From Escherichia coli (GTDB lineage Bacteria; Pseudomonadota; Gammaproteobacteria; Enterobacterales; Enterobacteriaceae): a stretch of 64,000 bases of DNA. A program made the translations under genes and the position numbers. The notes under the pieces are model-generated. The model did no database searches, was not told the DNA's origin, and was given only the letters and a program-made list of their open reading frames with translations. The stretch is from NCBI RefSeq assembly GCF_002854065.1, contig NZ_CP024147.1, one strand, 5' to 3'. Positions 2,024 through 64,000 of the stretch are shown here, piece by piece; position 1 is the first letter of the stretch, and each line of letters opens with the position of its first letter.

Positions 2024-4125
<2,102 letters not shown>

Positions 4126-6744: not shown

Positions 6745-6818
6745 TTGGAATCGTGTGCTGCACAAAATTAAAGTTAAAAAGTAAAACCCCCGTTCCTTAC
6801 CAGTTCGGGGGTTTTACT
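6745..6818 (+). ncRNA. ohsC: Candidate OhsC antisense sRNA (antitoxin of shoB); boundaries approximate
   Basis: Putative promoter (-35 TTGTAC 6707-6712, 18-nt spacer, -10 CATAAT 6731-6736), a 19-nt segment (6745-6763) that directly repeats 6496-6514 in the shoB 5' region with one mismatch, and a rho-independent terminator hairpin (AAAACCCCCG...CGGGGGTTTT, 6784-6815). Boundaries inferred, not measured. Confidence 0.45.
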
Positions 6819-6841
6819 TTATAAAGAGAACGGTATTATTT

Positions 6842-61454: not shown

Positions 61455-61817
61455 GGGGCTGATTCTGGATTCGACGGGATTTGCGAAACCCAAGGTGCAT
61501 GCCGAGGGGCGGTTGGCCTCGTAAAAAGCCGCAAAAAATAGTCGCAAACGACGAAAACTACGCTTTAGCAGCTTAATAACCTGCTTAGAGCCCTCTCTCC
61601 CTAGCCTCCGCTCTTAGGACGGGGATCAAGAGAGGTCAAACCCAAAAGAGATCGCGTGGAAGCCCTGCCTGGGGTTGAAGCGTTAAAACTTAATCAGGCT
61701 AGTTTGTTAGTGGCGTGTCCGTCCGCAGCTGGCAAGCGAATGTAAAGACTGACTAAGCATGTAGTACCGAGGATGTAGGAATTTCGGACGCGGGTTCAAC
61801 TCCCGCCAGCTCCACCA
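61455..61817 (+). ncRNA. ssrA: tmRNA (SsrA), 363 nt
   Basis: Starts GGGGCTGATTCTGGATTCGACGGG, contains tag reading frame GCAAACGACGAAAACTACGCTTTAGCAGCTTAA (ANDENYALAA*), ends with tRNA-like ...GGTTCAACTCCCGCCAGCTCCACCA. Confidence 0.97.
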
Positions 61818-61862
61818 AAATTCTCCATCGGTGATTACCAGAGTCATCCGATGAAGTCCTAA

Positions 61863-61897
61863 GAGCCCGCACGGCGCAAGCCCTGCGGGCTTTTTTG
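61863..61897 (+). terminator. Rho-independent terminator after ssrA
   Basis: GC-rich hairpin (GCCCGCACGGCGCAAGCCCTGCGGGC) followed by TTTTTTGTG. Confidence 0.65.
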
Positions 61898-62020
61898 TGC
61901 CCTGAATTTGTCCCGCGAAGTCCGAAGAGAACTAATTAAATCCGAACCTTTTAGGCCCATTGATAGGCCCAACGAAAAGCTCTATTGTTTTCGTTGGGCC
62001 TAAACGCATGGAGACTCCCC

Positions 62021-63262
62021 ATGGCAAGAAAAACCAAGCCGTTAACCGATACGGAAATCAAAGCCGCCAAACCTAAAGATGCCGATTACCAGCTGTATGA
62101 TGGTGACGGGCTTACTCTGCTAATCAAGTCCAGCGGTAGTAAGCTCTGGCAGTTCCGTTACTATCGACCTCTGACCAAGCAGCGAACCAAGCAGAGCTTC
62201 GGAGCCTATCCAGCCGTCTCCCTTTCTGATGCGCGTAAACTCAGAGCTGAATCTCGAGCTTTGTTGGCGAAAGACATTGATCCTCAGGAACATCAGAAAG
62301 AACAGGTGAGAAATTCTCAAGAGGCCAAAACCAACACTTTCCGGTTAGTTGCCGAGCGTTGGTGGAATGTGAAGAAAGCCAGCGTAACAGAGGACTATGC
62401 CGACGATATCTGGCGCTCGCTTGAGAGGGATGTTCTCCCGGCAATCGGTGATATCAGTGTCACTGAGATTAAGGCTCATACTTTGGTTAAAGCAGTTCAT
62501 CCGGTTCAGGCCAGAGGTGCATTAGAGACAGTCCGCCGCCTTTGTCAGCGTATTAACGAAGTCATGATTTATGCGCAGAACACAGGCCTGATTGATGCGG
62601 TTCCCAGCGTAAACATCGGGAAAGCATTCGAGAAACCGCAAAAGAAAAACATGCCAAGCATCCACCCAGGTCAACTTCCACAGCTAATGCAGACTATGCG
62701 TACGGCAAGTATCAGCCTGTCCACACGATGCCTGTTCATGTGGCAGCTTCTCACCATCACCCGCCCTGCCGAAGCTGCTGAGGCTCGATGGGATGAGATC
62801 GATTTCGATGCTAGCGAATGGAAAATTCCAGCTGCTCGAATGAAGATGAATCGGGAGCATACGGTTCCATTATCTGATGGAGCTCTCGCTATTCTGGAAA
62901 TAATGAAGTCTCTCAGCGGTGGTCGAGAATTTATCTTTCCCAGTCGCATTAAGCCTACCCAGCCGATGAACAGCCAGACAGTAAATGCAGCCCTTAAGCG
63001 TGCTGGTTTAGGAGGCGTACTCGTTTCACACGGCTTACGTTCTATTGCCAGTACGGCACTCAATGAGGAAGGATTTCCGCCTGATGTTATTGAGGCTGCA
63101 CTTGCTCATGTAGATAAGAATGAGGTACGTCGCGCTTACAATCGAAGTGACTATCTTGAGCAACGACGACCGATGATGCAGTGGTGGGCTGATTTTGTTA
63201 AAGCAGCAGATAGCGGCAGTATCGTGAATAGTGGGGTTAGGGGAATACGTCTTGTAGGATGA
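62021..63262 (+). CDS. intA: P4-type tyrosine integrase (prophage integrase at ssrA)
   Basis: ORF 61985..63262 (TTG start) trimmed to the ATG at 62021 (MARKTKPLTDTEIKAAKPKDADYQLYDGDGLTLLIKSSGSKLWQFRYY...), 413 aa; C-terminal catalytic region with HGLRSIAST...LAH...Y. Position directly downstream of ssrA is typical of CP4-57-like islands. Confidence 0.9.
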   Translation: MARKTKPLTDTEIKAAKPKDADYQLYDGDGLTLLIKSSGSKLWQFRYYRPLTKQRTKQSFGAYPAVSLSDARKLRAESRALLAKDIDPQEHQKEQVRNSQEAKTNTFRLVAERWWNVKKASVTEDYADDIWRSLERDVLPAIGDISVTEIKAHTLVKAVHPVQARGALETVRRLCQRINEVMIYAQNTGLIDAVPSVNIGKAFEKPQKKNMPSIHPGQLPQLMQTMRTASISLSTRCLFMWQLLTITRPAEAAEARWDEIDFDASEWKIPAARMKMNREHTVPLSDGALAILEIMKSLSGGREFIFPSRIKPTQPMNSQTVNAALKRAGLGGVLVSHGLRSIASTALNEEGFPPDVIEAALAHVDKNEVRRAYNRSDYLEQRRPMMQWWADFVKAADSGSIVNSGVRGIRLVG

Positions 63263-63536
63263 ATCCTTTATCAGCACCCATTATGGGTGCTGATAACTCA
63301 CCTATAGGTAATACGGAATTTTACCCTTTGGTTTTCTTTTTTCTAGTAACCGTATTATCGAAAGCCAATTTGATACTCTCAATATTTCTTGACCAGTTTT
63401 TTATAATGGTATCTGCCAATGCATCAGGGCTCATTGTTGATATCCGATATTTTTTACTTTGATTATTAATTTCAAAATTTGGGTGATGCTGCCAACTTAC
63501 TGATTTAGTGTATGATGGTGTTTTTGAGGTGCTCCA

Positions 63537-63812
63537 GTGGCTTCTGTTTCTATCAGCTGTCCCTCCTGTTCAGCTACTGACGGGGTGGTGCGTAACGGCA
63601 AAAGCACTGCCGGACATCAGCGCTATCTCTGCTCTCACTGCCGTAAAACATGGCAACTGCAGTTCACTTACACCGCTTCTCAACCCGGTACGCACCAGAA
63701 AATCATTGATATGGCCATGAATGGCGTTGGATGCCGGGCAACCGCCCGCATTATGGGCGTTGGCCTCAACACGATTTTCCGCCATTTAAAAAACTCAGGC
63801 CGCAGTCGGTAA
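63537..63812 (+). CDS. insA: IS1 transposition regulator InsA
   Basis: 91-aa [46 protein letters not shown]... (zinc-finger + HTH); A6C slippery run TTAAAAAACTC near its 3' end. Confidence 0.93.
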
Positions 63813-64000
63813 CCTCGCGCATACAGCCGGGCAGTGACGTCATCGTCTGCGCGGAAATGGACGAACAGTGGGGATACGTCGGGGCTAAATCGCGCCAGCG
63901 CTGGCTGTTTTACGCGTATGACAGGCTCCGGAAGACGGTTGTTGCGCACGTATTCGGTGAACGCACTATGGCGACGCTGGGGCGTCTTATGAGCCTGCTG
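63731..64000 (+). CDS. insB: IS1 transposase InsB (partial, 5' part; -1 frame relative to insA)
   Basis: From ATG at 63731: [90 protein letters not shown]... open to window end. Confidence 0.8.

What the first reader, a model, noticed from the sequence alone, without database searches (positions are those of the whole stretch)
61952..62002. 15-bp perfect inverted repeat directly upstream of the integrase start
TAGGCCCAACGAAAA (61964-61978) and TTTTCGTTGGGCCTA (61988-62002) form a perfect 15-bp stem around a 9-nt loop, with an extra half-copy TAGGCCCA at 61952-61959. It lies about 20 bp before the intA ATG and has no U-tract on either strand, so it is more likely a protein-binding operator, an integrase/excisionase arm site or an mRNA structure controlling intA translation than an intrinsic terminator.
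Basis: seen in the sequence. Interest (0 to 1): 0.35.

Follow-up and report, generated by a model that had tools for sequence, protein, structure and literature searches.

The report
Integrase arm-type binding sites at attL
The palindrome in front of the integrase gene is two of three copies of a short integrase docking site, of the kind long known from phage P4; these sites help assemble the recombination complex and probably let the integrase repress its own gene, so the feature is real but ordinary.

Summary
A perfect 15-bp inverted repeat lies at 61964-61978/61988-62002, with a third copy of TAGGCCCA at 61952-61959. The window holds no other copies.

The functional unit is the 8-bp site, not the hairpin. 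About 80 related integrase loci keep the same layout: two direct copies 12 bp apart, then one inverted copy 23-24 nt on, 14-31 nt before the start codon. The site sequence switches in all copies at once (TAGGCCCA, TAGGCACC, TAGGTACC, TAGGCATA).

Two further direct copies of the matching class lie about 60 nt before the attR core at the far end of the islands. This 2 + core + 2 + 1-inverted layout is the one annotated as "attP arm sequence repeat" in the phage P4 record.

All 19 residues that distinguish class A from class B integrases lie in aa 4-100, the Arm-DNA-bind_3 domain and linker. AlpA variants do not track site class.

The apparent RNA covariation is equally strong for a mutually exclusive helix. 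A predicted σ70 promoter (TTGATA-17-TATTGT) sits inside the palindrome.

Best reading: these are the P'-arm Int-binding sites of a P4-family attL. Negative autoregulation of intA, as in P4 and KplE1, is inferred. A new member of a known kind; low interest.

The parts
61455..61817 (+). ssrA (tmRNA) gene, the integration target
   Evidence: ARAGORN; Rfam tmRNA, 295.8 bits
61799..61817 (+). attL core region (ACTCCCGCCAGCTCCACCA), repeated imperfectly at attR of intact relatives
   Evidence: K-12 annotation places the CP4-57 left end at the equivalent of 61803 and a 14-bp pseudo-ssrA at attR. The motif ACTCC(C)GCCAGC lies 60 nt after every attR-type site pair.
61861..61899 (+). island-borne ssrA terminator hairpin plus T-run
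   Evidence: (I3); 100% identical between site classes
61845..61948 (+). conserved P'-arm spacer with repeats GAAGTCCTAAGAG (61853), GAAGTCCGAAGAG (61917) and AAATCCGAA (61938); candidate accessory-protein sites (RDF AlpA/Vis or IHF), function not established
   Evidence: D1, D2; aligns with blocks in P4 attP. No IHF consensus with one mismatch or fewer in 61800-62025.
61952..61959 (+). arm-type site P'1 (TAGGCCCA)
   Evidence: corresponds to P4 repeat 3965-3954
61964..61978 (+). arm-type site P'2 (TAGGCCCA plus A-rich flank ACGAAAA); left arm of the palindrome
   Evidence: corresponds to P4 repeat 3953-3942
61988..62002 (-). arm-type site P'3, inverted (TAGGCCCA at 62002-61995 plus flank); right arm of the palindrome
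   Evidence: corresponds to the inverted P4 repeat 3926-3915
61960..61988 (+). predicted sigma-70 promoter of intA: -35 TTGATA (61960-61965), 17-bp spacer, -10 TATTGT (61983-61988); start site expected near 61995
   Evidence: 9 of 12 matches. The same geometry is kept in class A variants and class B (TTGTTA-17-TATTGT, TTGATA-17-TATAGT; read). Prediction only.
62010..62013 (+). Shine-Dalgarno GGAG, 7 nt before the ATG
   Evidence: sequence
62021..63262 (+). intA, P4-family tyrosine integrase (413 aa); the arm-binding domain aa 8-95 is encoded by 62042-62305
   Evidence: Arm-DNA-bind_3, Phage_int_M, Phage_integrase; PDB 3JU0/3JTZ arm-type binding domains; AF2 model
63482..64000 (+). IS1 left end, 220 bp after the intA stop, running to the window end; probably truncates the island
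   Evidence: sequence; intA-IS1 junction with deleted flank in strain CUWW06

Best explanation
The palindrome and its 'half-copy' are the three P'-arm arm-type binding sites (P'1 and P'2 direct, P'3 inverted) of the attL of a CP4-57-type, P4-family island integrated in ssrA. IntA is heterobivalent. Its C-terminal domains act at the core in the ssrA 3' end, and its N-terminal Arm-DNA-bind_3 domain docks on TAGGCCCA sites. In the excised attP, two more direct sites lie about 60 nt on the other side of the core, so Int molecules can bridge arms and core to build the intasome. The predicted intA promoter has its -35 at the P'1/P'2 junction, its -10 between P'2 and P'3, and its +1 at P'3. Int bound there should therefore shut off its own transcription. 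Shown here: site number, orientation and spacing; their presence on both arms; identity of layout with P4's annotated arm repeats; and co-variation of site sequence with the Int arm domain only. Inferred: physical binding, use of the promoter, and repression.
For: (1) 33 distinct configurations from about 80 loci keep the 12-bp period, the 23-24-nt gap to the inverted copy (9 nt in two class C variants), and 14-31 nt to the ATG. The site switches in concert among four classes.
(2) Class-matched site pairs lie 60 nt before the attR core. Class A: L010, L105, L192, L233, and a degenerate pair in K-12. Class B: L032, L088, L127, L132. All five elements with both ends visible are class-matched.
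(3) The phage P4 record annotates 'attP arm sequence repeat' units in the same 2-core-2-1(inverted)-int layout, and the P4 P' arm aligns with this attL.
(4) IntA has an Arm-DNA-bind_3 domain that is homologous to the solved arm-type binding domains 3JU0 and 3JTZ.
(5) The arm domain is 69-73% identical between classes A and B, while the CB and CAT domains stay at 85-92%. All 19 class-diagnostic residues lie in aa 4-100 and none in aa 101-400; eight of them fall on or at the edge of the predicted beta-sheet.
(6) A promoter-like site lies inside the palindrome.
(7) Panis et al. 2010 (PMC2951348) show negative autoregulation where int promoters overlap attL arm sites. They also report the same for P4 Int, citing Piazzolla 2006.
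Against: There is no binding, start-site or reporter data for this locus. The promoter is only a 9-of-12 consensus match, and no comparable match is evident by eye in classes C and D. The P' sites sit next to the codons of the arm domain, so co-segregation there could be physical linkage; the distant attR sites argue against that, but only five elements show both ends. The 15-bp symmetry in class A is longer than an 8-bp site needs. It is partly explained by an A-rich flank shared by P2, P'2 and P'3. In this window the island appears cut by IS1 just after intA, so the recombination role may be vestigial here.
Confidence: 0.85

Rival explanations
1. An RNA hairpin in the intA 5' UTR controls translation or mRNA stability, possibly as a target for the AlpA/Vis-type protein.
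For: The RNA fold is strong (MFE -37.3 kcal/mol over 121 nt, z = -4.0). The stem shows compensatory changes across loci. For P4, Vis has been suggested to bind int mRNA (Panis et al. 2010, citing Piazzolla 2006).
Against: The mutually exclusive helix P'1:P'3 covaries just as well (score 0.257 against 0.293; 92% against 82% paired). So do direct copies 20 kb away at attR, which an RNA stem cannot explain. Only 8-9 bp of the stem survive in class D, with a 23-24-nt loop. The predicted start site (about 61995) lies inside the right arm, so the hairpin would not be transcribed from that promoter. The stem ends 8 nt before the SD and does not occlude it. There is no Rfam match.
Confidence: 0.06
2. 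The palindrome is the operator of AlpA (the island's small HTH regulator/RDF) or of another dimeric island regulator that switches intA on or off.
For: AlpA is reported to cause CP4-57 excision by inducing intA (bioRxiv 10.1101/2021.04.10.439273; PMC10107115). The palindrome overlaps the predicted promoter.
Against: AlpA variants do not track site class. L021 (class A) and L035 (class B) carry about 97% identical AlpA, while within class A AlpA ranges from 47 to 100% identity with invariant sites. Half-sites 31 bp apart centre to centre, plus direct copies on both arms around the core, do not fit a simple dimer operator. This window shows no alpA before IS1 interrupts the island. Binding of AlpA to the invariant TTTAGG part is not excluded.
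Confidence: 0.07
3. It is a terminator or insulator that stops read-through from ssrA into intA.
For: A GC-rich outer stem lies downstream of a highly transcribed gene.
Against: There is no T-run on either strand, and the scan does not call it. A canonical terminator already lies at 61861-61899.
Confidence: 0.02

Closest known systems
Phage P4 attP arm sequence repeats (NC_001609 annotation; Int-binding repeats flanking the core)
   Same: Five sites in the same order and orientation: two direct at a 12-bp period, core, two direct at a 12-bp period, one inverted, then int. The site shape is similar (P4 TGGGGGCA, here TAGGCCCA). The whole P' arm aligns. The integrases share the Arm-DNA-bind_3 domain (40% identity over aa 1-105).
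   Different: The site sequence differs. The gap from P'2 to P'3 is 23 nt here and 15 nt in P4. P'3 lies 18 nt before the ATG here but abuts or overlaps the start codon in P4. The target is ssrA rather than a tRNA-Leu gene (the latter from my own knowledge). P4 has a further repeat inside int (3621-3632) that has no exact counterpart here.
KplE1 (CPS-53) attL/PintS: IntS arm-type P' sites overlapping the int promoter, with negative autoregulation (Panis et al. 2010, PMC2951348)
   Same: The RNA gene and int point the same way, and the int promoter is embedded in attL. Arm-type sites lie at the -10 and start-site region. That paper predicts this arrangement to be autoregulated for most tRNA-linked integrases and verified it for intS, intC, intL and intF.
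   Different: It is a different integrase subfamily with a different site motif, and its RDF (TorI) sites were mapped. intA/ssrA was not among the promoters tested.
Lambda attP arm-type sites P1, P2, P'1-P'3 (own knowledge)
   Same: A heterobivalent Int with five arm-type sites split 2 + 3 around the core. The sites are read by an N-terminal beta-sheet domain.
   Different: In lambda, int is transcribed from distant promoters (pI, pL) rather than from within attL. The arm-domain family and the site orientations differ.
Arm-type binding domains of the HPI and HAI7 integrases (PDB 3JTZ, 3JU0)
   Same: The N-terminal domain of IntA matches both by sequence (E 2e-15 and 6e-18). The AF2 model has the four-strand sheet plus helices described for DUF4102 domains (PMC8138268).
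   Different: Those islands target asn tRNA genes (own knowledge), and their arm sites were not compared here.

Membership tests
Arm-type Int-binding sites of a P4-family attP/attL | Short repeats present in several copies on both sides of the recombination core | tested here: met
   Three copies in attL. Class-matched pairs lie 60 nt before attR cores in K-12, L010, L032, L088, L105, L127, L132, L192 and L233.
Arm-type Int-binding sites of a P4-family attP/attL | Number, orientation and spacing match the annotated P4 arm repeats | tested here: met
   P4 record: 4174-4151 (two direct), core 4097-4078, 3965-3942 (two direct), 3926-3915 (inverted), then int. Alignment.
Arm-type Int-binding sites of a P4-family attP/attL | The adjacent integrase carries an N-terminal arm-binding domain | tested here: met
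   Pfam PF13356 at aa 8-95, E 4e-25. PDB 3JU0/3JTZ.
Arm-type Int-binding sites of a P4-family attP/attL | Site sequence co-varies with the arm-binding domain and not with other domains or proteins | tested here: met
   All 19 class-diagnostic residues lie in aa 4-100. Domain identities. AlpA is unlinked to site class.
Arm-type Int-binding sites of a P4-family attP/attL | Direct binding by the Int N-terminal domain, and requirement for recombination | not testable with these tools
   Needs EMSA or footprinting, and excision/integration assays.
Negatively autoregulated int promoter embedded in attL (Panis et al. 2010) | The int promoter overlaps Int arm-type sites in attL | tested here: inconclusive
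   The consensus scan places TTGATA-17-TATTGT at 61960-61988, between and over P'2 and P'3. The geometry is conserved in classes A and B. No start-site data are available.
Negatively autoregulated int promoter embedded in attL (Panis et al. 2010) | Int supplied in trans represses the promoter | not testable with these tools
   Needs a reporter fusion.
Intrinsic (Rho-independent) terminator | GC-rich stem-loop followed by a T-run | tested here: not met
   Not called by the scan, and no T-run. The true ssrA terminator lies at 61861-61899.
Cis-regulatory RNA structure in a 5' UTR | A conserved helix supported by covariation specific to that helix, and present in the transcript | tested here: not met
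   Covariation is equal for a mutually exclusive helix. The inner stem is not conserved. The predicted start site lies inside the 3' arm. No Rfam hit.

The most novel reading that the evidence does not exclude
The arm sites and the arm-binding domain form an exchangeable specificity cassette. Integrases with near-identical core-binding and catalytic domains, using the same ssrA target, carry alternative arm domains (19 diagnostic residues, aa 4-100). These are matched to alternative sites that differ only in the last four bases: TAGGCCCA, TAGGCACC, TAGGTACC, TAGGCATA. That would give orthogonal intasome assembly and autoregulation, so islands competing for, or stacked in tandem at, one attB would not cross-excise or cross-repress. 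It would also provide a natural recognition code for DUF4102/Arm-DNA-bind_3 domains that could be used to re-programme integrases.
Probability: 0.4. Interest if true: 0.45.

Novelty: new member of a known kind. Interest (0 to 1): 0.25.

Why it matters
The result gives a concrete map of the recombination and regulatory sites of CP4-57-type islands at ssrA. I found no such map in the papers I could search; the original CP4-57 papers were not held. These islands are widespread in Enterobacterales, and their excision inactivates tmRNA. The analysis also shows how a protein-site palindrome can mimic RNA covariation. Finally, the four site classes paired with arm-domain alleles are a ready-made natural experiment on arm-site recognition. 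None of this changes the established picture of heterobivalent integrases.

Tried and rejected
- **RNA structure.** The fold is strong and the stem covaries. I rejected it because the competing helix P'1:P'3 covaries equally, the attR copies covary too, the long stem is class-specific, and Rfam gives nothing.
- **AlpA operator.** tblastn of AlpA in 20 loci showed no link between AlpA variant and site class.
- **GAAGTCC/AAATCCG repeats as AlpA sites.** L021 and L035 share both an AlpA variant and a repeat variant, but L047 and L048 break the pattern, so this stays inconclusive.
- **attR of the HUSEC2011 class B island.** It has been lost to an IS3-associated deletion.
- **Klebsiella phage Kp4865-2.** This is an unverified record with no P-arm sites visible upstream of the core, probably a prophage plus a neighbouring island. 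I did not use it.
- **IHF consensus.** No match with one mismatch or fewer in 61800-62025.
- **Papers not held.** Piazzolla 2006 and Szwagierczak 2009 could not be read. They are cited only through PMC2951348 and PMC8138268.
- **Papers on CP4-57 or CP4So excision.** These gave no data on the intA regulatory region.

Full report
**Observation.** The feature is exactly as described. Arms 61964-61978 (TAGGCCCAACGAAAA) and 61988-62002 (TTTTCGTTGGGCCTA) are 100% complementary and 9 nt apart. A third TAGGCCCA lies at 61952-61959, starting 12 bp before the second copy. The 8-mer occurs three times in the 64-kb window, all here. None of 30 Markov-1 simulated windows held a perfect inverted repeat with arms of 15 bp or more. 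The scan calls no terminator at this spot.

**Context.** ssrA (tmRNA) ends at 61817. An island-borne copy of its terminator follows at 61861-61899. intA starts at 62021, with GGAG at 62010-62013. IntA has Arm-DNA-bind_3 (aa 8-95), Phage_int_M and Phage_integrase domains. The region is 98% identical to K-12 CP4-57, where the right arm carries one mismatch (TTTACG). IS1 begins at 63482, 220 bp after the intA stop. A related strain has intA-IS1 followed by a truncated chromosomal gene. The island in this window is therefore probably a solo-integrase remnant.

**The unit is an 8-bp site in a fixed layout.** I fetched 80 loci encoding IntA relatives (56-96% identity) from Enterobacterales genomes and compared their upstream regions.
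- Across 33 distinct configurations the layout holds: two direct copies with a 12-bp period, then an inverted copy 23-24 nt later (9 nt in two class C variants), 14-31 nt before the start codon.
- The site sequence changes in all copies together, giving four classes: TAGGCCCA (A; window, K-12), TAGGCACC (B; for example HUSEC2011), TAGGTACC (C) and TAGGCATA (D).
- The long palindrome is a class A peculiarity. Class B has a mismatch at position 12, one class A subgroup has CTTTGTTGGGCCTA, and class D shares only 8-9 bp between the arms.
- An A-rich flank of the form A(A/C)NGAAAA follows P2, P'2 and P'3 but not P1 or P'1. This accounts for much of the extended symmetry in class A.

**The same sites occur on the other arm.**
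- In K-12, TAGGACCAacaaTGGGACCA lies about 65 nt before the attR core.
- Intact pairs with the 12-bp period lie 60 nt before an ACTCC(C)GCCAGC core in L010, L105, L192 and L233 (class A) and in L032, L088, L127 and L132 (class B).
- Every element with both ends visible is class-matched: K-12, L032, L132, L088/L089 and L186/L105.
- The reconstructed attP is therefore: two direct sites, about 60 nt, core, about 135 nt, two direct sites, 23 nt, one inverted site, then int.

**This is the P4 layout.** The phage P4 record annotates 12-bp "attP arm sequence repeat" units at 4174-4151 (two direct), a core at 4097-4078, repeats at 3965-3942 (two direct) and 3926-3915 (inverted), followed by int. The P4 site is TGGGGGCA. 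The P4 P' arm aligns with this attL, including the blocks CATCCGA.GAAGTCC, GTCC.GCG and AAATCCG.

**Which protein reads the sites.**
- Within class A the arm domain is the best-conserved part of Int: 90-98% identical, against 84-95% for the other domains.
- Between classes A and B the arm domain falls to 69-73%, while the core-binding and catalytic domains stay at 85-92%.
- Comparing 30 class A with 25 class B proteins, all 19 class-diagnostic residues lie in aa 4-100 and none in aa 101-400.
- An AlphaFold model (pLDDT 90.6) places residues 24, 32, 42, 48, 56, 58 and 60 on the four-strand sheet, with residue 54 at its edge.
- The domain matches the solved arm-type binding domains 3JU0 and 3JTZ.
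- AlpA does not track class. L021 (A) and L035 (B) have about 97% identical AlpA, and AlpA varies from 47 to 100% identity within class A.
- Linkage between the P' sites and the arm-domain codons is a caveat. The class-matched attR sites, which in K-12 lie about 22 kb from intA, answer it.

**RNA hairpin.**
- The RNA would fold strongly, and the stem shows compensatory changes (covariation score 0.293).
- The mutually exclusive helix P'1:P'3 scores 0.257 with 92% of cells paired, and the direct copies at attR covary as well. The signal therefore reflects shared site sequence, not base pairing.
- The predicted promoter would start transcription near 61995, inside the right arm.
- There is no Rfam match.

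**Regulation (inferred).** The scan finds TTGATA-17-TATTGT at 61960-61988. The -35 is formed by the P'1/P'2 spacer plus the first two bases of P'2. The -10 lies between P'2 and P'3, and the +1 falls at P'3. Classes A and B keep this geometry (TTGTTA-17-TATTGT, TTGATA-17-TATAGT, TTGATA-17-TAACAT; read). In classes C and D I could not see a comparable match by eye. Panis et al. 2010 showed that int promoters embedded in attL are repressed by their own integrase through arm-type sites near the -10. They report the same for P4 Int, citing Piazzolla 2006 (PMC2951348). I therefore expect IntA to autorepress here. AlpA is reported to induce intA and excision; how it does so remains open.

**Verdict.** The palindrome is two of the three P'-arm Int-binding sites of a P4-family attL, and it probably doubles as the intA operator. 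It is a new member of a well-known kind. The mildly novel point is that the arm sites and the arm domain switch together among integrases that otherwise share their core-binding and catalytic domains. That suggests an exchangeable specificity cassette, which I have not tested.

Noticed in passing
window 63482-64000: The IS1 left end (GGTGATGCTGCC...) starts 220 bp after the intA stop and runs to the window end. Strain CUWW06 has intA-IS1 followed by a truncated amylase gene. The island here is therefore probably reduced to attL plus intA, without alpA or attR.
   Followed up: partly
window 63268-63296: A perfect 13-bp inverted repeat, TTATCAGCACCCA/TGGGTGCTGATAA, with a 3-nt loop, lies 6 nt after the intA stop codon. 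It has no T-run. Function unknown.
   Followed up: no
window 6778-6820: The only other perfect 15-bp inverted repeat in the window: AAAGTAAAACCCCCG / CGGGGGTTTTACTTT, with a 13-nt loop.
   Followed up: no
window 61853-61865, 61917-61929, 61938-61946: Repeats GAAGTCCTAAGAG, GAAGTCCGAAGAG and AAATCCGAA lie between the core and the arm sites and align with blocks in P4 attP. They are candidate AlpA/Vis (RDF) or host-factor sites. Two loci sharing an AlpA variant (L021, L035) share a variant of these repeats, but L047 and L048 do not follow the pattern.
   Followed up: partly
L010 2750-3003; L032 5154-5290; L105 14231-14500: Tandem arrays at ssrA. In L010 and L032 the downstream integrase has lost its P' sites by deletion. 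In L105 a class A attR arm, a core, and a class B attL arm with its int follow one another.
   Followed up: partly
L065, L066, L067, L072 (about 110 bp upstream of int): Class C loci carry TAGGTACC, whose GGTACC core is self-complementary. They have extra copies, including GGTACC over the ribosome-binding site and start codon.
   Followed up: no
L079-L082: Class D integrases sit next to the 3' end of a tRNA gene rather than ssrA. Their core-binding domain is only 43.5% identical to IntA, yet they keep the same arm-site layout.
   Followed up: partly
window 61818-61949 against L002: The island-side attL segment, from the ssrA end to just before P'1, is 94-100% identical between class A and class B islands. 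Identity drops to about 70% exactly at P'1. This suggests a recombination boundary or strong constraint on that segment.
   Followed up: partly
L001 (strain MS 115-1) and L087 (strain CUWW06): In both strains another prophage with its own integrase sits directly upstream of intA: a P2-like one in CUWW06 and one with lambda-family lysis genes in MS 115-1. ssrA was not in the stretch fetched, so these look like tandem occupancy of the ssrA site.
   Followed up: no
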